From Blasia pusilla (taxonomy: Eukaryota), in contig CM114271.1 in assembly GCA_050084515.1 (NCBI GenBank), positions 49,848,001 through 49,912,000 of the forward strand: a DNA stretch of 64,000 nucleotides, read 5' to 3'. Shown one piece after another: positions 3,746 to 57,883 of the stretch. How positions within the stretch are numbered: the stretch's first letter is position 1; each line of letters opens with the position of its first letter. Under the pieces are notes generated by a model. That model saw only the letters and a list, made by a program, of their open reading frames with translations, was not told the origin of the DNA and did not search any database. Position numbers and translations under genes: made by a program.

Positions 3746-3746
3746 A

Positions 3747-12500: not shown

Positions 12501-15500
12501 AAAAAATTGACATGCCCTCTCAAAAACCTATGAACTTGCCGTCGCTCTCCTCCTATCAACTTGAGACCTATCACAGGCTCCCATCGTGACCTCACTTGGA
12601 GAGGACGCAACCTCCGGCTTTGGTTGCTTTGTAGCAACCCTAGCCACCTCCGCAACAGCCACTCCACTCTAACCTCCTACACCATGCTCCACATCCAAAA
12701 AATGAACATGTGCTACTCTAGCCGCTTTCGCACTCTCTGCTCGAACGACGTCCCAAGAAGTCCATGGGTGCCTATCTCTCCTTGTCTCGCCCCCAACCAA
12801 TGCCTGTACAGACCCTTTAGGCAATGGTCCAACTCGTGGATGTGACGGCATGGATGACACTCGCATCCGTCTCTGCTTAGCCATACCTAGGCTGACTATC
12901 CATGTGAGGCAGTTGAGGTCCATCGCCTGCCCCAACACCTATCTCCGGGATGCCTCAGTGATCCCTGGCACCGCCGTAGTACCGGTAGCAAACCCCATGG
13001 CACGCTCGCGCTCATCCCAAATCATGCTTGGCCCTCCTTGACGAAAGGCATGGGATGCTGGGAAGCTCACCAACGTAAGTAAGGCTGCTCTCAACTCCCC
13101 CATCCTATTCGCCATGGCCAACGGTGGTCTATCATCCCGTGTCACCACTTGAGATCGACGGCCTGAGCCCAAAATAGCATCCACTGTGAGATGTGGTGCT
13201 CTCTGGACTCCATCGTATGCTTGACTCAATACCTCTGATGGTATCAGGTTCGTCCACCACAGTCGTGGACGATGGGCACGTGATCCAACTCTTGCCGCAT
13301 CTAATAATATAGCAGGTCCCAACCAAGACCTCACCTGATACACACTCGTCATTAGACATGCACGAGTGTCTCCCAAAAACGGCACGTTCTCCAAGATGTA
13401 CGTTGGAGAACATGTCAGACTCTCTAGTTAGTGTCGTACTACTCGCAACATCTCCCAAAACATCCCTGATCTCGGATCTTGCAATCCAAATCCTCGGCTA
13501 GCTGATGAATGAACCTGACATGGCCATCCAGAAATCACCAAATGAATGGTGCCAACTCTATCCAGATCCTGCGCCCCCACCAAAGAGATGTCGGCGCGTA
13601 GCGTATGTTGATATCCCCGTATCGCAGATACCGGCAACAACTTAGGATACCTCTGGACCAATCTGGCCACGTGACGTAATGATACTCGCCGCGCGGTCTC
13701 ATCTCTCTCCAGATAAAGGTACTGATGCACCCGTATGCCCGCCTGCAATACTGCAGCCAATCCGGTGCTAATCCCTTCGAAGAGATCTAACACCCTAACA
13801 CCCTCCTCTAGGCACTACCACACAACGGGTGTGGTATCCACTCGGGTCAACATCTCCACTCCAAGAGCCCGATCGCCACGTGACTCTCGCTGCTTCGGGA
13901 TAAAAGCATGACTCCACGCCTGCCTCACGAGGTCGTTGGCACTCCTCTGTAGCTCTTGAGTCGTACCCCATAATGGTGAAGAGGTCTCGCTAACATGGGA
14001 AGAGACACCCGCCATGGCCAGTCTCTCCGTGGGACTATCCGCTACTGGGACATCCTCCGCATGTGTGTTCCCCTCCAACAACTCTCCTGGCCAACTAACA
14101 CTACCTGTGAAAGCCGCCAACGTGGTCATAGACTCGCCTCGTGATCGACCACCTGGTTCGGCAAACTGCACGGGTAACTGACTCATCCGGCCGTCACCTG
14201 ACCGCCATCTTGGTTGATAAGCAACGGTCTCCTCCTAGAAGTCAAGGATGAATCCTCGGGGATATAACATTGTACTCCCCACCAACACATCGAACGAGTC
14301 AGCTGGTGTCGTAATTGCACGTGTGCGCACCATAGCACTATCCGTCTCATGCTCTGGCAAGACTCTGACAACTATCTCCTGTCGAGTCATAGACTGCGTG
14401 GGTGACACGCCCCCAATCGAGGTGTGTATCTGGAAGGGACAAGGTTCAATGTCGGCCTTCCGTAACCCCAACGCTAAACACGCCGCCTTCGCTAACATCA
14501 AGGGTTACGCTCCCAAATCAAGTAGGACGCGTTGCGGGTGGTATACTATTCCCGTCGGACTAACCAAGCAAAATACTCCAACTCGGTTATTCAGTAACAC
14601 TACTCCATGTGTCACTACTGCTCGCTCTATGGCCGGTCAAGCTGGCATATCTACCAACTTCGCCGCCCCCGCATGCCATGACTCTGTGGGGAACGTCCCG
14701 AGCACCAGCTCCTCAACCTATGAACAAAAAGCAATCATCTCTCCACGCTCATACAATATGGCGGCCAACCGGAACACCTCAGCTGGTCCAAGTCCCAACG
14801 TCGCCAACTCTATGGCGGAAAATAGTGGAGTCTGACTCACTCTGATGGCCATCTCCAACACTATGGTCGACACTGACTCCACTCGAGCCGGCATAGGAGT
14901 TGTCACTCCAACTCCTCGTGACGTCGACGTAGGTACCTGAGCTGTACGCACCGTTGGTCGTCGAGGCACCATCGATGGTGTCTGTAGTGCCTCCGACAAT
15001 GTGAATGACTGTGGAACCCTGGCCTGCCGCCCATCGATCCCCTCTAGTGGGTCAATCTCAACTCCACCTCTTGGTGCCTCTCGTAGCACCCCGAGTCACC
15101 ACTGCAGCTACCTCAACCAGGGCTGCACTACACATAAACCCCAAACTGGCGAGATCCTCACCCGGGTCAGGGTAAGAGGTAGAAGTTGGAGTCACACTAG
15201 CTGCTCGCAGCTCCGTGTCTTCCCTAAGCTACATTATCGTCGTGGCAGCAATCCTCTGCTCCAACTGATCGATGCGTGAGAGAAGTGCTGGATTTGGTGC
15301 TCCTACTCCATCTCCTCTGGCTGGTGGTGGTCCTATACCACCACGTCCAGGAAGGACTTCGTGACCTCCTTCAGGTCAACCGCCCCTAGGCCCTCGTCCT
15401 ACCTCTGGAGGTGCCCCTCGGCGAAGGTTAAAACATCTATCCCTAGTGTGACCATATCTGTGGCAATAGTCACACTGGTGCTATGGTGGGGCCATCCTCT

Positions 15501-17855: not shown

Positions 17856-17869
17856 CATCTTTCTCATGT
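17856..17869 (-). promoter_or_regulatory. Putative self-priming primer-binding site of copy 2
   Basis: Element-strand ACATGAGAAAGATG directly after A1 is the exact reverse complement of element-strand CATCTTTCTCATGT at 18044-18031, which lies about 25 nt downstream of TATATAA (18075-18069). Confidence 0.75.
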
Positions 17870-18345: not shown

Positions 18346-23121
<4,776 letters not shown>

Positions 23122-24423: not shown

Positions 24424-25563
24424 GTTTTAGGCCTTGCGTGATCAGGCACTGTTCGGCCACCGCACCACTTTGCGAGATCATCCTGACGTGGATTGACTAG
24501 CGGAGAGGTTTGTGCAGACGGTGAAAAGAGGACTACGCAAGTATGGCTTGCAGAGAAGTCACCTAGGAGATTGGAACCTCTAGTTGCCGTGATTGGCGAT
24601 GGGATACACATTTAGCAGGCAGGCATCCTTAGCGTCTTTCTCACCGTACTTGCTACTTTATGGCCGAGAGCTAGATTTACCTACGGCCATTCGTCGAGAT
24701 GTTTATGAGGTGTTGAACCTTGATAACCCTAATGTATGGATGTGAGCATGTTCTCAGAGGGTTGAGTTTTTTTGGAGAGTGATGCCCATGGCATTTGAGA
24801 ACTTGGCGATTGCGTAGCATCAGGATACGTTGAGATATGCGGCTATTCGGGGAGGTGATTATCGACCTACCATTCGGAGGTTTCATTAAGGAGACTATGT
24901 CTACTTGTAGCAGACGGCATCCATGACGTTGGATGTGAATGTAGGGCGCACCATCTTGAGAGTGCGTAAGGTTTTGCCATATGTTGTTCTCTTGTTGGAG
25001 GGACGCGATGGTATGGTTTGGAAGGATCATGTGCGTAACTGTGCGTCATGCCACCTTCCTAAGATTGACGGTACAGTTTATCCGAGGTTAGTAGTAGTTC
25101 CTGCAAGGTTGCGATGTATGTTGTGTGGTTATGTCCGTGGTGCAGCCACTATGCTAGTCTGTGATGCATGTTCAAGAGGATGGCATATGGCATGTTTGAC
25201 ACCACCTCTCATTAGGGTTCCTCAACGACGATGGATGTGTCCCAGATGTACATAGAGTAGGTAGTTCCAGATTTGGACTTGTGTCTATGACATGGATGAG
25301 AAGAAGGCGACTAACGATGAGGCCACATGAGCACCTGGTCTTTTTGCTCTTAGCGTCCGAGAGATGTATGTTATGGTAGGTAGGGATAGATGGCTATCTA
25401 GAGTTAGAGGGACCTAACTACCAGCTAGGGGGGCGATTGGAGATATTTTGGTATTTCTTGTTTCGTTGTTTGGATGTCATGAGTTAGCATGGGATTGTGC
25501 GTGTTTGTGTGCATGTTTGTTGACAGCGATGTATGTTGTGTAGCGATGTGTATGCGCACGACA
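24424..25563 (+). mobile_element. 3' part of gypsy copy 3 (INT C-terminus, PHD, PPT, single B repeat), split by the CACTA insertion
   Basis: Starts mid-integrase directly after the CACTA TIR (GTTTTAGGCCTTGCGTGATCAGG, compare 1961-1983). PHD in ORF 24923-25255; purine tract AGGGGGGCG 25427-25435; B 25436-25563 ending CGACA; no A repeat follows. Confidence 0.88.
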
Positions 25564-25682
25564 CTTTGTAAAGACTTGTGAAATCAACAAATACACATCC
25601 ACACAACACTCCATAACCTTCTTATTATGGAGCCAAACCCAATATCATGTTGAGAGATTTGGATGACACTCACAAGATATAA

Positions 25683-42600: not shown

Positions 42601-45600
42601 ATCAAACAAAACTAATAAAAAATGGTACAAAAACTAAATCTCCAATGTTCTTCCTTTAGATGAATTTGGTTTTATCAAATATCTTATAAATCCATGAATT
42701 ACTAATCTAGTGTTATACCTTCAATTCATTCATGTTTTGTAAACCATATCAATGCACCAATACACTTATAATAGGAGGTATTTTAATTATGAGTTAAAGA
42801 GACATTTATTACACTTAAAAAATACTTGCAATAGACTCCCAAGGTACTTACAAATGAATCATAACTTTGCAACTAAATGAACTATGTCTATTTTATGAGT
42901 ATTCTACAAGAATTCACAAAATATTTGCAAGTAGCTAGCCATAAGATGTCCATGAAGAACTTGAAGAATGCTAGAAAACTCATTAAATGTACCTTGGGCT
43001 TTATACAACATTTCCACATGTTATTGCAAGAAGATCTTTGTTGTCAATCTTTCATCATGGAAAATTTTCTTTTTACAATTTTCGTAATTATTTTTTTACT
43101 CTTCTAGTGCATGATATGAAAAATTCCATGGTCTAGATTTCCTGTCCAAAATACTTCCAAATAAATATTTACATAGGAAATTTAAATGAACTCACATATA
43201 CTCATAAAATAGACTCCAAAATGCCAATTTTCTCAATGTAAAATTTTAGGATTATATTTCTTACTTGCAAAATCACGGGCTTATATGGTATCATATATAT
43301 TTGCCTCTCACTTTGCTATCAACCTTCTTGCATATTACTTATTGATTCACATAAGATTTGAAACTTGGAGATCTTTACTAATTATATTGAGTTGTAGCGG
43401 TTGGTTGTACATTTACTCTGGATTGTATCCAAGCTATGTATATGAATGATGTTTGAAGTAGAAGAAGGATTTATGAGAGTGTCTTGCTTACCAAGTTATT
43501 AGCTAGATTTTGGCAGCATAAATCCTCATTCTTATTATTTTTGAAGTTAATATAATGCTTACAATCAATATTATGCTCAAGTCCTAAAGTAATATTTCTA
43601 TGCTACGTTGCACTCAACACCTTATCCAAGTGAGGTGATGGATGCCAAAGAGTGGATATTTGTAGCCTACAGTATAGTGGAATCCTTCTCAATTGACCTT
43701 CTAACCCTTAACTTACTATATGAAGGTATGAGATAACATATAGATGATTGAGAGTATCTGCACACCATCATCTTTTCTTCTTATTTCTAGAGATCAATTC
43801 TACTCAAGAAATGTAGATATGTAACTTTGAGGGTCCATCAATCCAATGGGAAAAAAATCATTTGTATATGAAAATGGGTATTAAATTCTATTCTTTATGT
43901 ATATATAGAATATATTTGGGGATTTTTACATGACTGTATAAATATGTTGGTATGAAAGGATTGGGTGATTGTTCAATAGTTCCATGGATCTATGTTAATT
44001 TTAGATAAATAATTGAAGATACAAGGAAAATTCATTTGCGCAAGTACTAGCCCCAAAAATGTGAGTATGTTGTAACTACAAGGACTCCCTTCCCAAAACT
44101 TGAAGTGATACACATGCATGGCCATAATTGAGGATGAATTTGAGATGAAGAGAAAAAAATATTTAAAAAAAAATATTTTCATCACATGAAATATTTTAGA
44201 ACAAAATGATTCATTAAGAACATCATTCATTAAGGATCTTAGAATCTAGGATGCATAAAGGCAAATTTCATTTTATGATTGAGATAAGGATCTATGTGAA
44301 TCCTTTCTAGATGAGAGAAATTCTATGGCCATAAATATTTTTATGTGGAGACTAGTTGACTTGCCCTTGCGATGGAATAATTCCCCACCTTCTCATTTAA
44401 AAAAAAGAAATAAATATTCTTAACTTTAGTTTTGAAAAAACTTCATATCTTTTCCCCTTCTTGTTAACATGGGAGCATACCAACACTGTCATTTGGCAGC
44501 TTGAAAAAAAAAACTCAGTTTTCTAACATCATGCAACTTACACCTTTACATGGAGATCTTGGAATTTAAAAATAAACATTGAAAACAAAGATGCTCAAAT
44601 TATTGGCCCAAAAAAGTGCCAAATCAATGAAATAAAGCTAAAGACTAGTGAAAGAAAGACCTAATGATACTCAAGTGTGATCATTTGTAGCATCACATCT
44701 GAAAAAATCATTTTTAAATGAAGATTCTACAAAATTTTGCATCAAAACTAAATTCTATCCTAAACTTGGATTAAGCCTCTAACATGTGATCATATACCAA
44801 GATAACTTACTCATTCTAAGCAGAAGGTGTGGTAGCCATAAATGACATATACTTAAACAGTTGATAGCCAAAACAATATAGTTGTAAAAATAGCTAAAGA
44901 TAAAGGGTCTTCGAGGAATGTTGAGACGTCACATGGTCATGAGTGGATAGACAAAAGGATGACTAACTGATGATACCATGAATTTAATTGACAAGTGTCA
45001 TTGCCAAACTGAATTTCTTTTCATGCCCAAGAGAAGATATCCTAATAAGTCATACACCACATTAGTCACATGAAGCCATGACTCAACTAGCTATAGTAGT
45101 TGTCGTGCGCATACACATCGCTACACAGCATATATCGTTGTCACCGAACACACACACAAACACGGAAGATCCCATGCTAACTCATGGCATCCAAACAACG
45201 AGACAAGAAGAACTAAAATATCTCCAATAAAGTAAGATCCAATCTCTCTCTACACCATCTCACACCATAGCTTTCAAAGGTGTGCACTCTCTCTCATGTC
45301 AAACCAAACCCACTCTCCTAATGAGAGGCTTGGGTTACACTCACAAGACAAGGGACCATAGCTCCGGTGCCTCATGCCAAGAGGTTCAACAAAGAGAGAA
45401 TGAGCTCTCAAGCTCTCTCTCCTTGAGGTATACCCCTCCCCTCTCCCAAGCTCTCTCCATGGTAACCTATTCTCCCAAGTCACCTTCTTGGCTCTTGACC
45501 TGATGTAGGAGAATAAGGGCCACTTACCAAAAATAGAAATTTGATCATATACTCAAAATGGTACTTACCTAAAATAGTAAGTTCCTCAACATGGCTCCAA

Positions 45601-48600
45601 ATGAGCCGAAACGAAGGGGAAACCTGCTCTCTCAGGTTTCTCGGGCCTCAGCACGTCATCCTTGACCTATTGAGCGTGTCCTCCACTACTCACGAAGGCG
45701 CTCTACTAGATCTCACAGATCTATCCTATCTCACTTGACAACTGTCGTGCGCATACACATCGCTACACAACATACATCGCTGTCACCAAACACACACTCA
45801 AACACGCACGATCCCATGCTAACTCATGGCATCCAAACAACGAGACAAGAAGTACTAAAATATCTCCAATCGTCCCCCTAGCTGGTGGTTAAGTCCCTCT
45901 AGCTCCAGATAGCCATCTATCCCTACCTACCATGACATACATCTCTCGGACACTAAGAGCAAGAAAGCCGGGTGCTCATGTGGCCCCATCGTTAGTCGCC
46001 TTCCTATCATCCATGTCATATAAAAAGTTGGAATCGAAACCTACCTAGTATCTCCTCTATGTACATTTGGGACACATCCATCGTCCCCGAGGAACTCTAG
46101 TGAGAGGTGGCGTCAGACATGCCATATGCCAACCTCTCGAACATCCATCACACACTAGCATCGTGGCCACACCACGGACAGAACCACACAACATACAACG
46201 CAAGCCAGCAGGAACTACTGCTAAGCTCGGATCTACTGTACCATTAATGTTAGGAAGGGGATATGGCGCACAATTACGCACATGGTCCTTCCATACCATA
46301 CCATCGTGTCCCTCTAGCAAGAGAACACCGGATAGCAAAACGTCACGCACTCTCAGGATAGTGCGCCCTGTAGTCACATCCAACATCGTTGGTGCCGTCT
46401 GCTGCAAGTAGACATAATCTCCCCGATGAAACCTCAAGATAGTTGGTCGATAAGCACCACCCCAAATAGTCGCATACCTCAACATATCCCGATGCTGCGC
46501 AATCGCCAAGTTCTCGAACGCCATGGGCATCACTCTCCGAAACACCTCAACCCTCTGAGAACATGCTCGCATCCATACATGTGGATCATCAAGGTCTAGC
46601 ACCTCACTAGCATCTCGATGAATGGCCGTAGGTAAATCTGGCTCTCGGCCATAAAGTAGCAAGTACGGTGAAAAAGAAGCTAAGGATGTCTGCGTGCTGA
46701 ATCTGTTTACCTTCGCCAACCAGGGAAAATGGAGGTCCCAATCTCCTAGGTGACCTCTCTGCAAGCCAAACTTGCTTAAACCCCTCTTCACTGTCTGCAC
46801 AACTCTCTCCGCTAATCCATCCGCCTCGGGATGATCTCGCGAAGTCGTGCGATGGTCGATCAGCGCCTGATCACACAAGGCCTGGAACTCACCGTGAAAC
46901 TCGGTACCTTGGTCTATTAACACCTCAGCCGGTGCGCCATAATGACTCAACACTCTGTCAAGGAAGGCATAAGCTACTCCCTCACTCGCTTTGTCAGACA
47001 ATGCAACCAACTCGATCCACTTCGAGAAGTGCTCGACCATCATCAACACATAACGACTGTGACGCTCCGTCAAAGGCAAAGGTCTTGCAAAATCCAAACT
47101 CCATCTATACCCTAAGCCCATGATCGGTAATGGATGCAATTCTGGAGTCGGAGCATTGAACGATGCTCGGACCCGATCACACACCATGCACCTTGCAACA
47201 AACTGCTGAACGTTAGTCTGCATGCCTCGCCACCAATACTGAATCTGGAGCAAGCTGTACGTCCGCTTCACCCCAAAGTGACACAACTCCTCGTGGGCAT
47301 GCTGCACTAGTCATGCTCTCTACAAAGGATGCGGCACTACGCGTACTCTGCCATCCTCCCAAACCCTCAAAACGTGTGTCCCCTCCCAACGGAACCGTCT
47401 GGCCCGCTGTAGGATCCGATCCTGCTCTCTAGCACCCACAGTGCTCGCAACGCTGCCAGTACGAAGATACTCCAAGACTACTCCATCATCATGAATATCT
47501 CGACCATCTGTCATCTCCTCATTGGCCTCGGGATCCAAGGACTCTCCACTAGACCTCGCGATCAAAGTCTCCACACTCTGGCTCTCCATAGCCAACATGC
47601 CTAAATAGGTTGACGCGTGCCATCTTGGCACTGACTCCTCTTCACTCTCTCCATGCCATCGAGCTCCAATCGCATCTCGCTGACTCGGGCATGGGTTACG
47701 ACTCAACCCATCTGCATCCTGGTTGAGCGTCCCAGATCTATGTACCACCTGAAAATCATACTCCTGCAACAACAGAGCCCATCTTGCAAGCTTCCCTGTA
47801 AGCTTGTCGAACTACATCAACCACTTCAGTGGTTGATGATCAATGATGATGGTAAAGGGATTGCCCAATAAGTAACACCTGAAATGCACGACAGCCCACA
47901 CTGAAGCCAAGCACTCATCCTCATACGAGCTGTACTTTGCCTCTAGAGCATTGTTTGAGCGGCTAGCGTAAGCCACTACAAACTCTCTACCCTCATCATC
48001 ATGCTGGGTGAGCACCGCTCCAAGCCCAAACATGCTCCAATCTGTGTGCAATTGGAAAGGACGCCCCCCGATCGGTCTCCTCAAGATGGGCGCGGACGTC
48101 AACCTGTCCTTGAGCAACTAAAATGCTCCCTCCTACTCATTCCCTCAGTGCCACTTGTGATCCACCTTGGTCAGCAAGGTCAGCGGCTTTGCAATCAAAC
48201 TGAATCCCTTGACGTGCCCCCGATAGAAATTCGCCAATCCCATGAATGCGCAAACACGGCTCACATTTGTAGGGCGTGGAATGCATGAGATAGCCTCTAT
48301 CTTTGTCTGCTGAACACCAAGGCCCCTTGGGTATATCGTATGACCCAAGTACTCAATCTGGTCGTAGAAGAACTTGCACTTGCCTGGATGTAGCTTCAGC
48401 CCATGTAATTGCGATCGTCAAAACACCTCCTCTAGATGTTGCTCATGCTCCTCAACTGTGGCGCTGAAGACTACGATGCCATCAATATAACACCTAGCAA
48501 AATGTTGACCAGCCAAAATCCCACCCATGACCCTCTGAAACTCAGCCGGGGCGTTCTTTAACCCAAATGGTAAGAACCGCCACTAGTACAAACAATCCTT

Positions 48601-49474
48601 CCCGTGAGGATCGATGCCCCAAAATGCCGTCTTCTGCCTGTTCTCCAATCTTATAGGCAGCTGATGGTATCCGGCTCGCAAATCCAATGAACTGAAAACG
48701 TTTGCATGACCAATCGTATCAAAGATCTCCTCAGGGGTGGGCATGGTATACCTATCGGACTTCGTCTGCCGATTGATAGGTCGGTAATCCCCACACATCC
48801 GCCTATCCGTCTAGTTGCCATGCACATCCTTCTTGGTGGACATGACAATGGCAGATGCATACTCCCCATGCGACATCTCCACTAGTCTTGCTCCAACCAA
48901 GTCCTAGCTCCTACTGTGAATCAGAGCCCTCTCCATATCATTGTACCTGTAGGCTCGTCGAAAGATCGGCGTATCACTCGACAACTCAATGCGGATCCCC
49001 GGTCCCTTCAGCGTATCCAAATCCTCCATGCTAAACGCAAAGCAGCTCCTATAACTCCTGAGGAACTGATGTATTCGGCGCCGCTCTCCTCCTATCAACT
49101 TAGGGCCCATATCTGGCTCCCAAGTCTCCATCATGACTACGGTAGGACTCTCCGGCGCGAATATCGGTGGTTGCTATGGTGCAATAACACTCGACCGCTC
49201 TCCTACAGCCAACTGCAAACATTGATCTCCTCCACATGCAGTGCCCCGAACTACACTCGATGCTGTGGCTATCATCTCTTGGCGTACCTGCAAAACATCC
49301 CAAGAAGTCCAAGGGTATCTCTCTCGATCCCCTGGTGTGTCGATCTCCTCTGGTCTCGCCCCCAGCCACTGCCTCCACCGTCTCGATAGGCATGGGGCTC
49401 ACCAACGCAACCGCTGTGAGTAGTCGCGATCTCATCCGACGCTGCTCAGCCACTCCCAAGCTAAAGATCCATGA

Positions 49475-50392
49475 CAAGCAGTTCAGGTCCATTGCCTGAC
49501 CCAAGACATGGCGTTGTGATGCCTTTGATAGTGACGGTACTGCCGTCACTCCTGTGGGAAATCCCATTGTCCGCTCTCTCTTGTCGGCGTTGGGCTCCAC
49601 CAACCTCTGAACGTGGTCATCCCAAACCAAGCCAGGACCGGCCTCCTTGTATGCATAGGAAGCAGGAAAACTCTCAAAGGTGGGAAAGGCTGCCCGCGGC
49701 TTGCCTACCTTGTTGACCACAGTCAACCGTGGTCGATCATCGTGCCTCACTGCCTGTGAGCGAAGACCTGGATCCAGAATGGAATCCACTAACAAATGGG
49801 AGGGGCGCTTCACTCTCGCATACGCCCTCCGTAACACCGCATGGGCAAGTTGGTCCACCATAGACGCAGGCGATGGGCTCTAGAACCTACACTCGCCGCA
49901 TCCAAGAACACTGTTGGGCGATCCAGGCATGCACCTGATGAGCACTTGTCACCACCCATGACCTGGAGTCACCTAAGATGGGCACATTCTCCAGAATGTA
50001 GGCTGGAGAATAAGACTGGTGCTCCTGCAACTTCCGTAAGACCCTCAACATCTCCCAAAACAACCTGGATCGAGTACCAGCCAACCCGCTGCCTTGTCCA
50101 GCACTCAATTAGCCCTGACATGGCCAACCAAAAATGACCAAATCAATGGTCCCTACCCGCTCTAAGTCCAGCGCCCCCAACAACGAAATATCAGTCGATA
50201 GGGAACTCTGGTATCCGTGTACCGTGGACGTAGACAATAAGTCGGGAAAATATAGGCGTAATTGCGCCACATGTCGTAGTGAGACGCGCCTTGCAACATC
50301 ATCACTCTCCATATACAGGTACTGTTGTACTCGCACTCCTGCCTGCAAAACAACAGCTAACCAATGCTAATCCTTCCAAAGAGATCAAACAC
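49475..50392 (-). pseudogene. C5 cytosine DNA methyltransferase domain, second copy
   Basis: VFDLFGRISIG, YLYMESDD, IFGWPCQG, RSRLFWEMLRVL, YILENVP, RERTMGFPTGVT, RHVLGQAMDLNCL; frameshifted. Confidence 0.88.
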
Positions 50393-51310
50393 TCAAATAC
50401 CCTGCTCCGGGGTACACCACATAGTGGGTGTGCTATCCAAGGGTGTCATCGTAGCACTCCCTGCTACCTCGGGTTGCTCAGACCCGTCATGCTCCGGTGC
50501 AAACGCCTCGCTCCACGTGGTTTGCTTGTGCTCATCTGCCAATCGTCAAAGCTTCTCAATCGAGCCCCACAGCGACACCTCTCCTCCACGGAATGATGCG
50601 GCTACCATAACACTCCTCTCCATAGAAATGTCAGGAATGGGAGTATCCTCTGCATGCACATGTACCTCAATCAAATCACTAGGCCAAGTGATGGCACTGC
50701 TAAATGCTGCTAAGGTCGCCATCTCTCCTGGCCATTGCTCGATCACTGCACATGTGAATCGAATGGGTAATGAGCTAAGACGCCCATCATCTGACTGCTA
50801 TCGTGGTCGGTAGGACGCTGACTCCTCCGAGTAATCTAGGGAAAAACCTATCAGGTATAACACTGCTCCACCAACCAAGACGTCGTAGGACTCTGCATCA
50901 ATCACTATCGCCTTGGCTCACACCACGGACTCAACTGTAGGATGTCCCGGGCGAATCCTCACGACGACCTCCTGTCGGGTGATATACTGTGTGGTACTCG
51001 CTCCACCCAAGGATGTCTGTATCCGGAATGGACAACGCTCCACATCGGCTCTCGTCAAGCCCAATCCTCTGAATGACGCTTTCCCCAACATCAGGGGTTG
51101 CACTCCTAAATCCAACAAGACGCGCTGCGGACTAAGAGCTCTACCTTTGGGACTCATCAATTGGAAGACCTCTCGTCGGTTATCTAGCAACACAACACCA
51201 GGAGAAGCCATGGCACGCTCTATCGCGGGTCTAGCGGGTATCTCCGCTATCGTGTCGAGATCCTTTCTTCGAGTAAGGGCAGGCCTTCTAGCTGCGGTAG
51301 ACGCGGTCGA

Positions 51311-52513
51311 TGCAAGATCAACTCTCTGAGAAGATCTCTTTTTCAATATAAAATTATTATGTGTACTCTCCATTCTCTCACGACAGGTATCACAAATGGA
51401 AGTGCCGAGGCGATCACTTCTTTGTAACATCGGACCCCAAAATTCCTAACTATAAAATCCCTATAAACTATTTTATGCTTATATACGAGGAAGATAGCAC
51501 AACTAGTATTAAACCTTACTTGAGCAGGCCTATTGACGTCCATGGATCGCTATATAAGGACATACAAAGCACAATCCCATGTCCTTCCATATGTGACAAT
51601 AGGAACGATCACCGGAGTTGGAGATTGAATGACCTGGTTCATGAACGCCTCTCCAAAGTGATAAACTAAATAGCGAGTGAACCATTGCCTATCTACAAAG
51701 AGTATCTTGACATGGTATGGATTAAGGAAAGGAAAATTGGGCACAAGTCGTGCTCCATCCCTATCCATGCTTGACAGACATTCTCTACTCTCCTCAAGAA
51801 GGGGTTTTGGCGGAGTTATTATCCCAAGAGGGGTAATCCACTCTCATTGGGGAAGTAACAAGCCAAAACATTCATTATTTTAGTATGACTAAACTCCTCT
51901 AAGGTGAAAAACCTCTCATCTCCACACACACACACCACACTCTAGAAACCTCTCGAAGAATAAACCATGGTCAAGTTACTCTCCCAGTATGAGTGATCCA
52001 CTCTTATTGGAAAAGCAAGCAATCCCAAAGCCATACACTCAGGAGTGACAGGAGAGACTCAAGATTTGAAATAAAAGGTGATGAACCCTTGAAGGTCCCT
52101 CCTCTTTATATACTCATAAGGGATCCACAAGAGTACGAAATAGAGCTTATCTTATCTTGTGCCACATGGCTTCCTCTCAAGACTTAGCCAATCACATTTT
52201 GACACGAGTAGATTTTCTCTTATCTCTTCCAAAATATCCTCTTTTACCCTCTTGATATTTTCCAAATTATCCCAACTAACCTAGCCACCAACCAAAACTA
52301 CTTTTGCTTTTCATGAAAGCAACTATTTTATTTTTATAAAGTCATCTTTTATTTATTACCTCCTTTTCCTAAAGTTGGGCCCGCATAAAGAGGCACCATA
52401 AAGAGGTTTAAACATAAATTTTTCCTTTTTCTAAGCCAATTTACTTAATACTAATGAAACTCTATCTAACACTTAATGACGAAGGAATTTACATACTAGT
52501 TGATTTTACTATA
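51311..52513. mobile_element. About 1.2 kb AT-rich insertion nested in the gag-protease linker of copy 4; probable solo LTR of another family
   Basis: Abrupt composition change. CGA on both sides (51308-51310, 52514-52516); removing the insert and one CGA restores the frame between ORFs 52544-52759 and 50918-51430. Imperfect inverted ends TGCAAGATCAACT / AGTTGATTTTACT; TATA-like motif near 52107 on the minus strand. Confidence 0.7.
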
Positions 52514-55500
52514 CGACACCGCCATCCTAGCAGCCGCAGCCTGTCATGAATCTGATGTGGACGGCCCGAGCATCTGCTCCAAGGGCAGGTCTATCACCTC
52601 CTCTGCAATCATCTTTGAACGTGATGCAGGAACTCCAACTCCACGCTCACATAGCGTAGCGGCCAGCCGAAAAGCCTCGGCGGGCGTACCCCCAAACGTC
52701 ATAACATCGGAAGTGGAAAATAAAGGAGCGCGGTACACAATGGTGGCCGCTCCCAACAACGTGCTCGACAGATGCCCCTCCTGAGCATCAAAATATGAGT
52801 CGTCGCACTCGCTTCTCCCATTGCCCTCCGTGCTTGCACACCAACAACGCCACCAACTCTCCAGGAACTCTGATCAGGACCCATCGATGGGATCCTCATT
52901 GCCTCGGACAAGGTGAAAGACTGAGGAAGCCTAGTTTGTTTCCTGGCTTCCCCTCGCTGTTGATCCAACTCTGCAGCTGCTCCACGCATCACAAATGCGG
53001 TGGCCTCCATCTGGGCAACCCCGCACATCCAACCAGGATCCTCCATATCTCTGGATGCTCCATATGATGTCGATGCCACTGATCCCATGTCGGGTAATTT
53101 CAATGCCATAGTAGCAATCTGCTCATGTAGCTGATGTATCTGAACAACCATCCTAGCCTCACGCCCGGCATCTTCCTCGGCACGTCTAGGTGGTGGTACT
53201 CTACCTCCTCCACGGGCACCTCCACCACCCTGTCGGGAAACTCCAGCTCCTCGTCCCCCAGCGGGACAACCTAGTGCACGATCTCTAGCCCACCCGGACC
53301 GGCTACTCGCTCTGGTGCCCTCTCTGGCCCTCGGTCCGGACGTAACTCAGGATGTAAACTGAAACACCTGGCGCGTGTATAACCATACCTCCGACAAAAG
53401 TCACAGTGATAACCTCCTGGTGCAGCACCATCTCCTCCTCCATGCTGAGGCACACGTCTATGACTCTGACGAGTGCAATCGCGCTAATGATGGGCTCCAC
53501 CACATGACCAACAAGTAGTAGTAGGTGGCTGCTGTTGAGCCGCATATGAAGGTGCACGTCCCTGTGGCACGGCCTCCTAGTATCCTCCCTAAGCTTGTGG
53601 TACCACAGTCAACCTATCTCGGAGTCCACGTTGCTGCACAGGTAGTGCAGACAATCGTGATTGCTCTCGCCCAGAACCCATGGTGGCTATGCTATCCTCC
53701 GCCATGTTGCGCTCAATGTTCTCGGCGGTCCTGAAAAAATCTCTCAACGTAGGGGAGGTGTTCATAAGAAGCACCCCTCCCGCACCCGTGTCCGCAGGGT
53801 CCGATCCAGCATCGCGTACCATGACTGGTTAGCCTGAGCCTCTGTCACCCCCTGAGTGACGTTGACCAACCGGCGCAAGCAAGTGTAAGCCTCACGCAAA
53901 CTCTCACCCAGGCGCCTCTGGAAGTCGTGGATGCTCCGCAACTTCTCTGTCCGTACCCCCTGGTAGCTCGCCCTCAACTCAACAAAGAACTCAACCACAT
54001 GGTTGAACCTCGGACAAACCCGACTAGACGGTGCAACTGCTCCCGTGCGAGTGACTCCTCCTAAAACGTCACTAGTGGAATAGGAAGTAGCCTCTCTTGA
54101 CTCCTCCTCCTCATCTGGGAATGGCTCCGTCCATGACACATAATGTGGGTCATAGTAGAGCCTCCACGCCTCGATCTCACGTGCATATCTCTGAGAGAAC
54201 TCATGGTAATCGTCCATGGGCATCCCCTCTAAATGTTGGAACATACCGTTCCATGTTGTAAATCGGTTAAACTCTCTAGAGTTCCTGGCCTGCTGGGAGT
54301 CGCACCAACTCCTAAACTCTGCTATGAAATCGTGCAACTCAATCGTGTCTACTGCACCTGAAAACCTACGCGGTCCTCTACCCCGATCGTCCATCTCGTA
54401 CGCCCAACTGGTAGGACCACTCACAATGTGTGGCAATGTGCTCACAAACTCCTCTACATGCTCCTCCTCGTCTGAAGACGACACATAAGGAGATCGAGGT
54501 GGTCTCTCACGTTGAGACCCTCGAAACCTCGCACCACTCTGGGTAAACCCTCCAGAGCTACTCTCAGGTCCACTACCTCGACTCTCAAAATCTTGAAAGG
54601 ACGCCCTGTTGGCCCTCATGCCCCTCTCACACGATCACTCTCAACCTCGCAAGTAATCCCTCAATCTCTCATCCCAAACATGCGGCACTCGATCTACACT
54701 CTCCCTCCCCGAGACGTGTAACGTGCGGCAACAAGCGGCGTGGTGCGGCAAATCGACCATGCTATCATCTCATCGACAACCTACCCTCAACTCCGGACAT
54801 CCCACACAGGTCTATGTCCCCTAAACCACATACATAAATGATGCTCTCAGCATCCACACACCTAATATCCCCAAATAAACTACCCAAATCCCAGAATCCC
54901 TCACACGTGCAGGATAAAGGACCAGAATGGATAACCTGAACACATGTCGATGTAGCTCCTCAGCAACTGCAAATCTCGACCCCAACTCGGTCATGGAGAC
55001 AACTCCTCCAATCAGCAAGTCATACTCCTCCCGTACTGATGGTGCTTAAAACTCTTTGATGGACAGTGCGGTTCTAGCGGAACGGTGCGGCGTTGCAGGT
55101 GGGACGGAACGGCTACGAACGGCACGACCCTCGATGGTGGGATGCGGCACTCGGTGGCATACCCTCCTTAATCAATAATAAACCCACATTCTGCTCCACA
55201 ATGACGGTACGGCTCCGCGATCGAGACAGTGTGGTGCGGTCACGAGCGGAACGACGTGGCAATCGGTGGTACGTTGCGGCTACGGGCGTCACGGCACGGT
55301 ACTCGATCGCCGTCGAGCGGCTACCAATCACAACATAGCAGCATGAAATTAAAACTCAAACACCATAATCGGAGGTCATCTACCATCACTGGTTGATGAC
55401 GAAACTGCGATGACGGTGGCAGCCAAACCAAATTACGTAATGGCAACGCAAGTCAGAGAATCAACGGTGGTTGTGGAAGACCCTCCACTTTGTCATGGCG

Positions 55501-56282
55501 GCAATGGCAACCGAACGGTGGACAACGGCGAATGCAGCTTTGAACAACGCTGGGCAACGGCAACGGCAATGGTGGCTGGTGGACCGTTGACGGTGACGGT
55601 TGACCGTTGATGATGATGACGGACTGTTGACGGTGACGGTTTACCGTTGACATTGACGTTGACGATTGACCGTTGACAATGAAGGTTGATTGTTGATCGG
55701 TGACGGTGACTATGACGGCGACGGCCGCTGCCGGCGTGGCGGCTGGTTTAGGGTTTGAACAATTTAACCTTAAAAATCGCTTAGCAATGGCAGTTTTGCA
55801 AGATTGACTATAACTTTTTACTCGCAACTCCAAATTGCGCACTATTTGTTGCACAACGTGCACAACTTTACGATCTACAAAAATATTAAAAAAATATTTG
55901 GAATTAGACATTCTAGTAAAAACGAACGGGGACTATCGTAAAGCCCAATGTCTCTTTCTCCTACACAAAATTTGGCAGCGCTTCCGCGCTGATTTCTCCC
56001 AACCAAAATGTAAAACCTATAAAAATACAAATCAGCAAGCTACATAGTGCTCCCGAGAGCACCGACATGGAGCAACCCGCCCCCATAGTCAATCCCTATC
56101 AGAAATTGGGCAACGCTTTCACGCGCCACTCTTCCACACAAAAAATTGGCAAATGCAAAGAACAATCAAAGCATCCCTTGCTTCGGTGAGCACTTCCATG
56201 AGCTCCTGAATAGGGAACACGGTCCCCATCTTGAAAAAACAGCGAGTGACCAGCGAGCTCCCCCATGAAGCTCTCTCACTGT

Positions 56283-56298
56283 CTCATTCTGTCTTTGT
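56283..56298 (-). promoter_or_regulatory. Putative self-priming primer-binding site of copy 4
   Basis: Element-strand ACAAAGACAGAATGAG directly after A1 pairs at 15 of 16 positions with element-strand CTCATTCTCTCTTTGT at 56474-56459 inside A1. Confidence 0.72.
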
Positions 56299-57883
56299 AA
56301 AGTAAGATCCAATGTCTCTCTACACCATCTCACACCATAGCTCTCAAAGGTGTGCACTCTCTCTCATGTCAAACCAAACCCACTCTCCTAATGAGAGGCT
56401 TGGGTTTCACTCAAAAGGCAAGGGACCATAGCTCCGGTGCCTCATGCCAAGAGGTTCAACAAAGAGAGAATGAGCTCTCAAGCTCTCTCTCCTTGAGGTA
56501 TACCCCTCCCCTCTCCCAAGCTCTCTCCATGGTAACCTATTCTCCCAAGTCACCTCCTTGGCTCTTGACCTGATGTAGGAGGTCAAGGGCCACTTATCAA
56601 AAATAGAAAGTTGATCATATACTCAAATGGTACTTACCTAAAATAGTAAGTTCCTCAACATGGCTCCAAATGAGCCGAAACGAAGGGGAAACCTGCTCTC
56701 TCAGGTTTCTTGGGGCCTTAGCACGTCATCCTTGACCTATTGAGCGTGTCCTCCACTGCTCACAAAGGCGCTCTACTAGATCTCACCGATCTATCCAAAA
56801 AGACATGATATAGTAGATTGGATCGCCTCAAAAAAAAATAAAATTTGATGACCCAAAAAGTTCAAGTAGGCATGATTCTTCGAAGATCTTCCTTTCCCTA
56901 GAATCAGCATTTTTCAGGAATTATGTCTAAAGAATGAGTGATGGCATGAAGGAATAGTTCCTACAACCAACCAATCTCTAGATGATCCTACCCTAGAAGT
57001 CAGCTTTAATTTTCTAAAACCGATCATATGTTTTGAGGATGATTCTAGAGAGAAGCCATTGGTTACATGACTTTTTTCATGCAATTGATTAAATTCTTGT
57101 AAGATTATGTAGTTAATGATTGCTTAAATGACCTCCATATCATGCAACCTATTATTTGGTTGCATTATATCCACATTATATAGTTGATAATTTTTTGGAT
57201 TAATATATAGGAAATTGATTGATTATAGGGAAAAGATCCTCCTCCCAAATTAAACTAAAAAATTTAAATTTTAAAATGAAATTGGAGATGAATAGTATAT
57301 AGATAGGGGGAACTAAAAAGAGACGTGATGAATCTTTTCAAAACTTGTACAATCAATAGCTTACTAATTGATTAAAATTCCAAGAACTAAATAGCAATAA
57401 AAAAGTAATGAAAGAATTGAAATTTAATCTATTCCTTCTTCTTTTTCATTCTCTGTTTAGCTTAGTATAGGAAAAAATAATAATGTGAAAGAGGCTTCAC
57501 ACATGGCATGAGGAGAGAACTTGACAAAAATATACTAACACGCTCGATAGTATAATTGGGAAGAGGGGTTAATGTAACAGCTTTCTCTAAATGGATCTCT
57601 TTATGTTATTATGTGAATTTGGAATTGATGAGTATAATCTCAATCCCTACAAGATTCATAATAAAAGAACTTCTTTAAGGTGTTCTCCTTTTCAAATGAA
57701 AAAAAATCAAATCAAAATTTGTTACTTAGACTCGATTATATATAAATACTTATATACAATTTTTTTCCAACTTAAGGGATCCCTTATTAACTTTTTCTCA
57801 ATTGAAATTTTTAGAAATGATTTTATTGAATATTTTCAGATCCAACAATTCATTGTGGTACCGACCATTAAACTAGTCTAATT

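What the first reader, a model, noticed from the sequence alone, without database searches (positions are those of the whole stretch)
49475..50392. Second, diverged DNMT domain at the same pol position in a different subfamily (copy 4)
Seen: the same motif set (DLF, GWPCQG, YILENVP, MGFP, VLGQAMD) at the same PR-RT position, although copies 2 and 4 have unrelated A repeats and visibly diverged Gag. Inference: the DNMT was acquired before the subfamilies split and was retained, which points to a functional domain rather than a one-off gene capture.
Basis: partly seen in the sequence, partly recalled or inferred. Interest (0 to 1): 0.78.

Follow-up and report, generated by a model that had tools for sequence, protein, structure and literature searches.

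The report
Dead DNMT3 domain in liverwort-type retrotransposon
This is a decayed copy of a jumping gene that carries its own DNA cytosine methyltransferase between its protease and reverse transcriptase; such elements were already described in a green alga, and here they turn up in a liverwort-like land plant.

Summary
The region matches Pfam DNA_methylase above its cut-off, and it aligns end to end with intact DNMT domains of liverwort elements.

Copy 4 (45101-56796, minus) is an old Ty3/Gypsy-type element ordered Gag-PR-DNMT-RT-RNaseH-IN-PHD, with split direct repeats. Its DNMT is dead: three frameshifts, two in-frame stops, and changes at otherwise invariant residues.

The inference is supported for the lineage, not for this copy.
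- Between copies 2 and 4 the DNMT shows pN 0.22 against pS 0.70.
- Motif columns are better kept than the rest.
- DNMT and RT-RNaseH trees agree.
- The same PR|DNMT|RT layout occurs in Marchantia, Calypogeia, Sphagnum, Closterium and Klebsormidium proteins.

The Klebsormidium hit ties the element to the published KnitGypsy-Dnmt3 family (PMC5890265), so this is a new member of a known kind.

Beyond the finding, a sister lineage carries the DNMT between RNase H and integrase. I found no report of these elements in land plants in the searchable literature.

The parts
56298..56796 (-). A1, the 5' terminal repeat of copy 4
   Evidence: 96.4-96.8% identical to A2 at 45228-45726. No match to the A repeats of copy 2.
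53762..54634 (-). Gag region (open 290-aa frame)
   Evidence: ORF listed. phmmer with it matches the N-terminal Gag part of Marchantia and metagenome polyproteins. 52% identity to copy 2 over 192 codons. No Pfam family at E<=0.01.
51246..52521 (.). Nested 1276-bp low-GC insertion between Gag and PR, absent from copy 2
   Evidence: tblastx leaves a gap of 1391 bp in copy 4 against 86 bp in copy 2. GC is 29-45%. DNA contigs of run X1 join 51245 to 52522 (2 contigs, depth 62).
50756..51250 (-). Aspartic protease region (decayed)
   Evidence: 56% identical to copy 2. It aligns with the PR of relatives that carry D[ST]GA at the active site; both window copies read DLG there, and this stretch has two in-frame stops. 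No direct Pfham hit; relatives match Asp_protease_2 weakly, at 21.9-22.8 bits against a cut-off of 24.3.
49433..50437 (-). DNMT3-like C5 cytosine methyltransferase domain, motifs I to X in canonical order, broken
   Evidence: PF00145 at E 3.5e-9. tblastn with intact Calypogeia and Marchantia domains gives four pieces in three frames with two in-frame stops. Motif positions.
48064..48948 (-). Reverse transcriptase
   Evidence: 72% identity to copy 2 over 295 aa. The C-terminal part hits RVT_1 weakly. Aligns with the RT of relatives.
47575..48066 (-). RNase H
   Evidence: RT_RNaseH_2 at E 9.7e-29 and RT_RNaseH at 2.8e-28. 78-82% identity to copy 2.
46198..47310 (-). Integrase (H2C2 zinc domain and DDE core)
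   Evidence: Integrase_H2C2 at E 8.3e-14 and rve at 2.6e-12, in the open 417-aa frame 46057-47310.
46063..46197 (-). PHD finger at the integrase C-terminus
   Evidence: PF00628 at E 2.6e-10, residues 372-416 of the 417-aa frame. The same domain is found in relatives of both architectures.
45743..45870 (-). B1 repeat, directly preceded by a purine-rich tract
   Evidence: 93.8% identical to B2. Junction sequences read.
45228..45726 (-). A2 repeat
   Evidence: Pairs with A1.
45101..45228 (-). B2 repeat, the 3' end of copy 4
   Evidence: Pairs with B1. Copy 1 aligns up to position 45100.
12864..13838 (-). Comparator: DNMT domain of copy 2, one frame with three in-frame stops
   Evidence: Translation P0002. 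PF00145 at E 5.7e-7. Best solved-structure matches are DNMT3A/B/C. It has PCQV in place of the family-invariant PCQG and lacks 12 residues before motif IX.

Best explanation
Copy 4 is an old, inactivated insertion of a Ty3/Gypsy-type retrotransposon of the Gypsy-DNMT3 lineage, the family first described as KnitGypsy-Dnmt3 in Klebsormidium nitens. The host looks like a liverwort. In intact relatives a single Gag-Pol frame encodes Gag, protease, a DNMT3-type C5 cytosine methyltransferase domain, RT, RNase H, integrase and a C-terminal PHD finger. The element is bounded by split direct repeats (A1 ... B1-A2-B2).

Shown: the DNMT domain entered this retroelement lineage long before the two subfamilies in the window diverged. 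It was then inherited together with RT and was kept under purifying selection with its catalytic motifs intact. In copy 4, and in copy 2, it has since decayed along with the rest of the element.

Inferred: in active elements the domain is made as part of the polyprotein and released or kept fused by the protease. It lacks the regulatory PWWP/ADD parts of host DNMT3, so it would act as an unregulated de novo methyltransferase on the element's newly made cDNA or on chromatin at the integration site. The integrase PHD finger would tether the complex to histone tails. Methylating its own DNA would let a new copy look like host DNA, or limit its own expression.
For: Identity of the domain:
- PF00145 is hit above its cut-off in both copies.
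- A family profile hits DNMT3A at E 3.8e-24, plant DRM at 3.6e-14, M.HhaI at 7e-9 and DNMT2 at 3e-7.
- Motif order is canonical.

Retroelement context:
- Copy 4 has RNase H, integrase and PHD Pfam hits.
- PR and DNMT share one frame in copy 2.
- Of the best 150 of 2421 database relatives, 91 carry PR, RT, RH, IN or PHD beside the DNMT.
- Of 80 metagenome loci, 73 are PR|DNMT|RT, 2 are RH|DNMT|IN and 5 are undetermined.
- L001 and L022 have Gag to IN in one frame without stops.

Same lineage as the published family:
- P0065 is GAQ93235.1 of Klebsormidium nitens with PR-DNMT. It falls on the type-A side of the tree.
- The split direct repeats match the legend of Fig. 4c in PMC5890265.

Selection:
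- pN 0.222 against pS 0.701 between copies 2 and 4.
- Motif columns are better kept than the rest.
- In 412 unsaturated pairs among 45 metagenome loci (RT-RH pS 0.1-0.45), median DNMT omega is 0.47, 0.35 and 0.24 by divergence bin, against 0.44, 0.34 and 0.30 for RT-RH. Every pair is below 1. The pairs are not independent.

Co-inheritance:
- Architecture changes once on the DNMT tree (110 labelled rows with FastTree; 26+30 rows with IQ-TREE, SH-aLRT 98) and once on the RT-RH tree (8+38 rows, support 100).

Decay of copy 4:
- Breaks are listed.
- Copy 4 has G22R, D121G, E276K, E295K and R298Q at columns kept in 95% or more of relatives.
- Repeat pairs are 3-6% diverged.
- Copy 4 has A/T where family contigs have G/C at 68 places, against 9 the other way (run X1).

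Host: the LRR receptor kinase ORF is most like Marchantia paleacea (54%), M. polymorpha (51%) and Riccia (50%).
Against: - No activity has been shown for this class. The KnitGypsy-Dnmt3 domain gave no methylation in yeast, which the authors call inconclusive (PMC5890265 section 10).
- dS between copies 2 and 4 is saturated (pS 0.70; NG86 fails for several segments; the ML run for IN gave an implausible 0.83), so no exact omega can be given.
- The codon alignments come from ungapped tblastx pieces, which favours conserved stretches.
- The DNMT evolves faster than RT, RH and IN (pN 0.22 against 0.13-0.14).
- Copies 2 and 4 are only weakly sister in the DNMT tree (support 92 and 86) but strongly in RT-RH (95). 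Synonymous divergence is also higher in the 5' half (0.70-0.76) than in the 3' half (0.62-0.65). A mosaic history is therefore possible.
- DNMT3 assignment rests on similarity ranking against solved structures. No host DNMT3 sequences were available for a rooted tree.
- The protease is assigned by alignment only.
Confidence: 0.85

Rival explanations
1. The domain is retained but non-catalytic: a pseudo-enzyme kept for DNA or SAM binding, or as a structural spacer in Pol. Purifying selection would then not reflect methylation.
For: KnitGypsy-Dnmt3 produced no methylation in yeast (PMC5890265 section 10). The DNMT evolves faster than RT and IN.
Against: The residues that do the chemistry are the best-kept columns in 41 type-A relatives: Cys of PCQ 100%, Glu of ENV 100%, RxR of motif VIII 95-100%, Gly of motif I 97%. 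They are also invariant or nearly so in a mixed type A/B alignment. The yeast result is uninformative, because human DNMT3B also failed there.
Confidence: 0.12
2. The two subfamilies share the DNMT through recombination (template switching between co-packaged RNAs) after they diverged, not through simple vertical descent.
For: Synonymous and amino-acid divergence differ between the 5' half (Gag-PR-DNMT: pS 0.70-0.76, 52-60% identity) and the 3' half (RT-IN: pS 0.62-0.65, 74-81% identity). The two copies are strongly sister in RT-RH (95) but only weakly so in the DNMT tree.
Against: The DNMT is the more diverged part, so it was not recently passed between the subfamilies. If anything, the RT-IN half was exchanged. 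Every named relative of the bryophyte clade has the DNMT at the same site, so both parental lineages would have carried it anyway. pS values near saturation are noisy.
Confidence: 0.2
3. Two independent captures of a host DNMT3 by related elements explain the two copies, or the two pol positions PR|RT and RH|IN.
For: The published view is that DNMTs were acquired by retrotransposons repeatedly (PMC5890265; bioRxiv 10.64898/2026.05.21.726589, passages read). No host DNMT3 outgroup was available here, so one capture followed by relocation cannot be told from two captures for the type A / type B split.
Against: For copies 2 and 4, both domains sit in one 100%-supported clade of 17 element-borne sequences, at the same position and with the same flanking linkers. 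For A against B, both share the integrase PHD finger and closely related RT-RH and DNMT sequences, each tree needing a single change.
Confidence: 0.05
4. The motifs are a chance resemblance, or a host DNMT gene fragment lying next to a transposon, and not part of pol.
For: The two longest open pieces of copy 4 alone gave no Pfam hit at E<=0.01.
Against: PF00145 is hit at E 3.5e-9 once the in-frame stop is read through. tblastn gives E 1e-109 to intact element-borne domains. PR and DNMT are in one continuous frame in copy 2 and in intact relatives.
Confidence: 0.01

Closest known systems
KnitGypsy-Dnmt3 of Klebsormidium nitens (de Mendoza et al. 2018, PMC5890265; sections 9-11 read)
   Same: A DNMT3-type domain sits inside the Pol ORF of a Gypsy-type element. 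Repeats are arranged as in DIRS elements, while the domains are Gypsy-like. The DNMT is under purifying selection (the paper gives Ka/Ks < 0.2). A K. nitens protein (GAQ93235.1) with PR-DNMT falls in the same type-A group.
   Different: The host here is liverwort-like, a land plant. The window copies are about 35-40% identical to the K. nitens domain's group and sit in a separate bryophyte clade. The paper describes the acquisition as specific to the K. nitens lineage, whereas the relatives found here span several streptophyte groups.
Type-B relatives: RT-RNaseH-DNMT-IN-PHD polyproteins (e.g. 'pol' of Scenedesmus sp. PABB004, KAF8056149.1, and many unnamed contigs)
   Same: They have the same DNMT family (35-43% identity to copy 2), related RT-RH, and the same integrase PHD finger.
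   Different: The DNMT lies between RNase H and integrase instead of between protease and RT. The two layouts are separated by one branch in both trees.
Host DNMT3A/3B/3C catalytic domains (solved structures)
   Same: They are the best sequence matches among solved structures (profile E 3.8e-24). Motif order is the same, including the DNMT3-like motif VIII and motifs IX-X.
   Different: No PWWP or ADD regulatory domains were detected in the polyproteins scanned. The domain is embedded in a retroelement Pol. Identity is only about 25-30% in the aligned core.
SymbioDIRS-Dnmt3 of Symbiodinium (PMC5890265)
   Same: A retroelement-borne DNMT3-type domain inside Pol. Those domains methylate CG de novo in yeast.
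   Different: They are DIRS elements with a tyrosine recombinase in dinoflagellates. Here the element has a DDE integrase (rve) and Gypsy-type RT-RH.
Chromoviruses (Ty3/Gypsy elements with a chromodomain at the integrase C-terminus; mentioned in bioRxiv 10.64898/2026.05.21.726589, passage read)
   Same: A histone-reading module is fused to the integrase C-terminus.
   Different: The module here is a PHD finger (PF00628), not a chromodomain.

Membership tests
C5 cytosine DNA methyltransferase (Pfam PF00145) | Profile match above the curated cut-off | tested here: met
   Copy 4 piece P0001 scores 37 bits against 22, E 3.5e-9. Copy 2 P0002 scores 29.7 bits, E 5.7e-7.
C5 cytosine DNA methyltransferase (Pfam PF00145) | Motifs I, IV (PCQ Cys), VI (ENV), VIII (RxR), IX and X present in canonical order | tested here: met
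   Positions are given. The alignment to DNMT3A is, and to intact relatives. Motif names are recalled from general knowledge of the family.
C5 cytosine DNA methyltransferase (Pfam PF00145) | An open, translatable catalytic domain in this copy | tested here: not met
   Copy 4 has three frameshifts, two in-frame stops and G to R at the conserved glycine of motif I. Copy 2 has three in-frame stops and PCQV in place of PCQG.
DNMT3 subfamily | Closer to DNMT3 than to other DNMT classes | tested here: met
   Profile against solved structures: DNMT3A 3.8e-24, DRM 3.6e-14, M.HhaI 7e-9, DNMT2 3e-7. No DNMT1 chain appears at E<=0.001.
DNMT3 subfamily | Placement inside the DNMT3 clade in a tree with host DNMT1, 3, 5 and DRM sequences | not tested
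   No tool gave me host DNMT sequences. PMC5890265 reports such a placement for the K. nitens elements (section 9).
DNMT3 subfamily | Motif order not rearranged (this separates DNMT3 from DRM) | tested here: met
   A single collinear alignment runs from motif I to X against DNMT3A.
Gypsy-DNMT3 retrotransposons (KnitGypsy-Dnmt3 type) | DNMT encoded inside the Pol frame of a Ty3/Gypsy-type element | tested here: met
   Order PR-DNMT-RT-RH-IN in copies 2 and 4. PR and DNMT share one frame in copy 2. L001 and L022 have a single open frame from Gag to IN.
Gypsy-DNMT3 retrotransposons (KnitGypsy-Dnmt3 type) | Sequence kinship with the K. nitens elements | tested here: met
   GAQ93235.1 (P0065) has PR-DNMT and lies on the type-A side with the window copies.
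Gypsy-DNMT3 retrotransposons (KnitGypsy-Dnmt3 type) | DIRS-like (split direct) terminal repeats | tested here: met
   A1 ... B1-A2-B2 is seen in copy 4 and copy 2 and in 3 of 5 relatives examined (L032, L040, L026; not in L018 or L058). The published feature was read from the legend of Fig. 4c only.
Gypsy-DNMT3 retrotransposons (KnitGypsy-Dnmt3 type) | Purifying selection on the DNMT | tested here: met
   pN 0.222 against pS 0.701 between copies 2 and 4. Every one of 423 pairs binned by RT-RH pS below 0.45 has omega < 1.
Gypsy-DNMT3 retrotransposons (KnitGypsy-Dnmt3 type) | DNA methyltransferase activity | not testable with these tools
   The published yeast assay was inconclusive.
Ty3/Gypsy LTR retrotransposons | RT, RNase H and DDE integrase in that order | tested here: met
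   RT_RNaseH, Integrase_H2C2 and rve hits. RVT_1 is found in relatives.
Ty3/Gypsy LTR retrotransposons | Two identical long terminal repeats flanking the internal region | tested here: not met
   The 5' end has A only, and the 3' end has B-A-B.

The most novel reading that the evidence does not exclude
Gypsy-DNMT3 elements are not a Klebsormidium peculiarity. They would be an old, coherent clade of green-lineage retrotransposons defined by three linked traits: a DNMT3-type methyltransferase in Pol, a PHD finger on the integrase, and split direct repeats. The clade would have two fixed layouts, PR|DNMT|RT in streptophytes including land plants (liverworts, a moss) and RH|DNMT|IN in a chlorophyte-type lineage. 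It would still have intact members and reach high copy number in at least one liverwort-like genome. If the domain is active, bryophyte genomes, including the model Marchantia polymorpha, would carry many transposon-borne de novo methyltransferase genes that are left out of current accounts of their methylation machinery.
Probability: 0.35. Interest if true: 0.6.

Novelty: new member of a known kind. Interest (0 to 1): 0.4.

Why it matters
Cytosine methylation is the host's main weapon against transposons, so a transposon that encodes its own de novo methyltransferase reverses the usual picture. That idea is already in print for a charophyte alga and for dinoflagellates. This window adds four points.
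- The same element lineage lives in a land-plant genome. It is there as at least two deeply diverged subfamilies.
- It is high-copy: summed contig depth is in the thousands in two DNA runs.
- The methyltransferase has travelled with RT through that whole history.
- Many Marchantia polymorpha gene models named 'hypothetical protein' are pieces of such elements. This matters for anyone counting DNMT genes or reading methylation mutants in that model plant.

The locus itself is a dead copy and has no function of its own.

Tried and rejected
- Whole-genome search of the window's own assembly: no genome is held. No census of intact copies in the host was possible.
- Pfam on the separate open pieces of copy 4's DNMT (85 aa, 259 aa), on Gag and on PR: no family at E<=0.01.
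- NG86 with Jukes-Cantor correction failed for Gag, the linker, motif VIII, the TRD and motifs IX-X, because pS reached 0.75 or more. YN00 failed for five of six regions. The ML estimate for IN (omega 0.83, dS 0.20) contradicts the raw counts and was discarded.
- Earlier notes of this scan: none exist for this genome. One word search gave a diatom case.
- Literature: searches for Marchantia gene identifiers of the hits found 0 papers. Searches for 'Gypsy-DNMT3' and variants found only PMC5890265 and one 2026 preprint. The search Marchantia + DNMT3 + retrotransposon gave 13 papers. In the four I opened I read only the passages holding my search terms, and none describes a transposon-borne DNMT3 in liverworts. 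Supplements and figures were not seen, so a mention there is possible.
- Sequencing runs: no RNA holder was listed for 49300-50700.
- RNA reads laid on the stretch (X22, X23; 6-12% of each run read): 518 and 759 reads, of which only 11 and 7 are 99% or more alike. They therefore come from other copies. Depth on the DNMT bins (49360-50397) was 0-0.7. This says nothing on expression of the DNMT in active copies.
- Names for type-B relatives: 10 more clusters were looked up and none carried an organism name.
- A 12-nt direct repeat at 51275 and 52581 was considered as the target-site duplication of the nested insert. The contig joints place the boundaries at 51245/52522 instead, so it was dropped.
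- Target-site duplications and a primer-binding site for copy 4 were looked for by eye without a clear result.
Full report
**What is at the coordinates**

The window holds several copies of one retroelement family. A self-comparison gives:
- copy 4 on the minus strand at about 45100-56800;
- copy 2 on the minus strand at about 8700-18350;
- copy 1 on the plus strand at 5-3746, which is 85% identical to the RT-to-end part of copy 4 and is cut by the window start;
- a fragment at 24424-25566.

Scanned alone, the two longest open pieces gave no Pfam family at E<=0.01. Once the in-frame stop after GWPCQG is read as X, the stretch 49883-50366 (P0001) matches PF00145 DNA_methylase at E 3.5e-9, 37 bits against a cut-off of 22. 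tblastn with the intact DNMT domains of a Calypogeia fissa and a Marchantia polymorpha protein covers 50437-49433 at E 1e-109 and 3e-103. By homology the domain runs from 49433 to 50437.

**State of the domain in copy 4**

The tblastn match comes in four pieces in three frames:
- 50437-50360;
- 50360-49920;
- 49917-49846;
- 49849-49433.

That makes three frameshifts, near 50360, 49918 and 49849-49837. There are two in-frame stops. One lies just before motif I (50393-50395). The other lies directly after PCQG (50109-50111, TAA). The last piece (139 aa, motifs IX-X and the region before them) is open and 70% identical to the Calypogeia domain.

At columns where 95% or more of 41 relatives agree, copy 4 has five changes: G to R at the glycine of motif I, D to G, E to K twice, and R to Q.

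Copy 2's domain (12864-13838, P0002) is in one frame. It has three in-frame stops, PCQV in place of the invariant PCQG, and lacks 12 residues before motif IX. Both copies are relics.

**The element around it**

Pfam gives RNase H (E 1e-28), Integrase_H2C2 (8e-14), rve (3e-12) and a PHD finger (3e-10) downstream on the same strand.

The protease region (50756-51250) has no Pfam hit of its own. It aligns with relatives whose active site reads D[ST]GA, and those relatives weakly match Asp_protease_2. Both window copies read DLG there.

The order is Gag, PR, DNMT, RT, RNase H, IN, PHD.

The ends are not ordinary LTRs. In element orientation the layout is A1 (56796-56298), internal part, B1 (45870-45743), A2 (45726-45228), B2 (45228-45101). 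Further points on the repeats:
- Copy 2 has the same layout.
- So do 3 of 5 metagenome relatives examined (L032, L040, L026). L018 showed one repeat pair and L058 none.
- A purine-rich tract precedes B1.
- The B1-A2 junction of copy 2 is a perfect 10-nt palindrome.
- The A repeats of copies 2 and 4 share no detectable similarity, while the B repeats are 85-92% alike over their first ~50 nt.
- Repeat pairs differ by 3-6%, so both insertions are old.

Copy 4 also carries a 1276-bp low-GC insertion between Gag and PR (51246-52521). Copy 2 lacks it, and contigs of a DNA run bridge across it.

**What kind of methyltransferase**

Copy 2's domain finds DNMT3A, 3B and 3C first among solved structures (E 2e-8), then plant DRM (0.003), then bacterial enzymes.

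A profile of 15 family members (A1) sharpens this:

| Target | E-value |
|---|---|
| DNMT3A | 3.8e-24 |
| DRM | 3.6e-14 |
| M.HhaI | 7e-9 |
| DNMT2 | 3e-7 |

No DNMT1 chain appears at E<=0.001. The alignment is collinear from motif I to X, so the domain is not rearranged as in DRM. I could not place it in a tree with host DNMT genes, because no tool gave me such sequences.

**Relatives**

A HMMER scan of 1.84 billion representatives with copy 2's domain gave 2421 proteins at E<=1e-3, of which 171 are at E<=1e-30.

Of the best 150, 91 carry protease, RT, RNase H, integrase or PHD segments homologous to the window's beside the DNMT. The other 59 are DNMT-only fragments.

Two layouts appear:
- PR-DNMT(-RT-RH-IN), which I call type A. 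This is the window's layout.
- RT-RH-DNMT-IN-PHD, which I call type B.

Pfam on full-length examples confirms both.

Named type-A proteins come from:
- Marchantia polymorpha, with many 'hypothetical proteins' at 55-71% identity to copy 2;
- Calypogeia fissa (68%);
- Sphagnum fallax;
- Closterium;
- Klebsormidium nitens, GAQ93235.1.

The only named type-B protein is 'pol' of Scenedesmus sp. PABB004.

Of 80 metagenome loci fetched, 73 are type A, 2 are type B and 5 are undetermined. L001 and L022 have every domain found on the contig, Gag through IN, in one frame without a stop. L058 and L070 are open type-B elements.

The host of the window looks like a liverwort. Its LRR receptor kinase ORF is 54% identical to Marchantia paleacea, 51% to M. 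polymorpha, 50% to Riccia and 38% to Calypogeia.

Between copies 2 and 4, using in-frame tblastx pieces, the figures are:

| Region | Amino-acid identity | pN | pS |
|---|---|---|---|
| Gag | 52% | 0.302 | 0.758 |
| PR | 57% | 0.259 | 0.744 |
| PR-DNMT linker | 39% | 0.377 | 0.806 |
| DNMT (313 codons) | 60% (I-VI), 79% (VIII), 51% (target-recognition part), 73% (IX-X) | 0.222 | 0.701 |
| RT-RH | 74% (RT), 81% (RH) | 0.129 | 0.624 |
| IN | 76% | 0.138 | 0.650 |

Synonymous sites are near saturation, so exact omega values are unreliable. NG86 gives 0.20 (bootstrap 0.11-0.30) for motifs I-VI and fails elsewhere. Replacement change is nevertheless far below silent change. The DNMT is more constrained than Gag, PR and the linkers, and less than RT, RH and IN.

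Motif columns are identical at 50 of 62 positions against 129 of 228 elsewhere (Fisher p 3e-4). Across 41 type-A relatives the majority-residue fraction is 0.80 in 64 motif columns against 0.57 in 236 others (p 2e-12). The catalytic Cys, the ENV Glu and one Arg of motif VIII are invariant.

For unsaturated data I used the metagenome loci. Among 990 pairs from 45 loci with both domains covered, I took the 412 pairs with RT-RH pS of 0.1-0.45. Their median omega by divergence bin is:

| Domain | Bin 1 | Bin 2 | Bin 3 |
|---|---|---|---|
| DNMT | 0.47 | 0.35 | 0.24 |
| RT-RH | 0.44 | 0.34 | 0.30 |

All pairs are below 1. These pairs share loci and include dead copies, which pushes omega upward.

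- FastTree on 143 DNMT domains puts all 40 type-A rows on one side and all 70 type-B rows on the other, so there is 1 change among 110 labelled rows.
- IQ-TREE on 26 type-A and 30 randomly drawn type-B rows gives the same split with SH-aLRT 98.
- The RT-RH tree (8 type A, 38 type B) also needs one change, with support 100.
- Within type A, both window copies lie in a 100%-supported clade of 17 rows with the Marchantia, Calypogeia and Sphagnum sequences.
- The two copies are sisters with support 95 in RT-RH, but only 92 (FastTree) or 86 (in an unresolved trio with P0164, IQ-TREE) in the DNMT tree.

This last point, together with the higher silent divergence of the 5' half, leaves room for recombination between subfamilies. 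That would not change the main conclusion, since every relative in the clade has the DNMT at the same place.

**Reads**

Two DNA runs of one coded organism hold the family as thousands of short contigs at 95-99% identity. Summed depth is 2000-4100 over the DNMT and 4500-12000 over RT-IN.

Copy 4 has A or T where these contigs have G or C at 68 places, against 9 the other way (run X1). That fits GC-to-AT decay after insertion.

Contigs depart from the window at 50362 and 49845, which are two of the three frameshift sites. Those breaks therefore distinguish copy 4 from other copies.

RNA reads are few. They are almost all 95-99% alike and so come from other copies.

**How it likely works**

Shown:
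- The domain is a DNMT3-type fold with the catalytic motifs kept in the family.
- It is translated within Gag-Pol in intact relatives.
- It is co-inherited with RT.
- It is under purifying selection.

Inferred:
- After protease processing the domain acts as an unregulated de novo cytosine methyltransferase. It would act on the element's cDNA or on chromatin at the insertion site. The integrase PHD finger would supply chromatin contact.
- The benefit would be disguise as host DNA or self-limitation. The authors of PMC5890265 raise both ideas in their discussion.

Activity is unproven. Their yeast test of the Klebsormidium domain gave no methylation and was called inconclusive.

**Comparison with what is known, and novelty**

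The element meets the tested features of the Gypsy-DNMT3 class of de Mendoza et al. 2018:
- a DNMT in Pol;
- kinship with a K. nitens element protein;
- DIRS-like repeats;
- purifying selection.

It fails one defining feature of ordinary LTR elements, namely two full LTRs.

It is a new member of a known kind. Three things appear to go beyond the papers I could search:
- the presence in liverwort-type and moss genomes;
- the number of Marchantia gene models that are pieces of such elements;
- the second, clade-defining position of the DNMT between RNase H and integrase.

PMC5890265 speaks of an acquisition 'in the K. nitens lineage'. A 2026 preprint says 'streptophytes (Gypsy-DNMT3)'. [quoted passage not shown] I saw no figures or supplements, so wider sampling may already be shown there.

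I did not test it. It suggests that the type-B position may be older or wider than the green lineage.

**Verdict**

- Observation: confirmed.
- Interpretation: supported for the lineage.
- The locus itself: a dead copy.
- Kind: already known.
- Interest: moderate (0.4), mainly for the extension to land plants and the two fixed layouts.

Noticed in passing
45101-45870 and 56298-56796 (copy 4); 8719-9480 and 17870-18343 (copy 2); L032, L040, L026: The elements have split direct repeats (A1 ... B1-A2-B2) together with a DDE integrase. A purine-rich tract lies directly before B1. The B1-A2 junction of copy 2 is a perfect 10-nt palindrome, resembling an LTR-circle junction. How such an element replicates and integrates is unexplained.
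   Followed up: partly
46063-46197 (-): A PHD finger (PF00628, E 2.6e-10) sits at the integrase C-terminus, where chromoviruses carry a chromodomain. Relatives of both DNMT layouts share it. The word PHD does not occur in the main text of PMC5890265.
   Followed up: partly
51246-52521: A 1276-bp low-GC insertion is nested in copy 4 between Gag and PR. Other genomic copies lack it, as contigs join 51245 to 52522. The insert is itself high-copy and is the best RNA-covered part of the stretch (70-127x at 52128-52473). Its type was not determined.
   Followed up: partly
database relatives (P0007, P0018, P0112, L058, L070 and others): A sister lineage carries the same DNMT family between RNase H and integrase instead of between protease and RT. 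The layout changes once on both the DNMT tree and the RT-RH tree. One cluster (P0112) has an identical 2487-aa protein on 10 different contigs, which suggests recent activity in an unnamed organism.
   Followed up: yes
45900-56250: Copy 4 has A/T where the family's contigs have G/C at 68 places, against 9 the other way (run X1; run X2 is similar). That is a GC-to-AT decay signature. Several changes at invariant DNMT residues are of this type.
   Followed up: partly
about 51100 (copy 4) and about 14510 (copy 2), minus strand: The protease active site, D[ST]GA in intact relatives, reads DLG in both window copies. That is the same replacement in two diverged dead copies.
   Followed up: partly
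copies 2 and 4, 5' half against 3' half: Silent-site divergence is higher in Gag-PR-DNMT (pS 0.70-0.76) than in RT-RH-IN (0.62-0.65). The two copies are firmly sister only in RT-RH. Recombination between subfamilies is possible.
   Followed up: partly
L001, L022 (metagenome contigs): These are apparently intact type-A elements. Every domain found on the contig, Gag through IN, lies in one frame with no stop.
   Followed up: partly
38117-39745 (-), 6055-6603 (+), about 31075 (-): Other content of the window: an LRR receptor-kinase ORF (best hits are liverworts at 50-54%), a CACTA-type transposase fragment (Transposase_21, E 9e-34), and a Copia-like RT motif (YVDDIVL).
   Followed up: partly
Marchantia polymorpha proteins P0165-P0177, P0187-P0190, P0195-P0200: More than 20 annotated 'hypothetical proteins' of the model liverwort are pieces of these DNMT-bearing elements. 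None of six gene identifiers I searched for appears in the searchable literature.
   Followed up: partly
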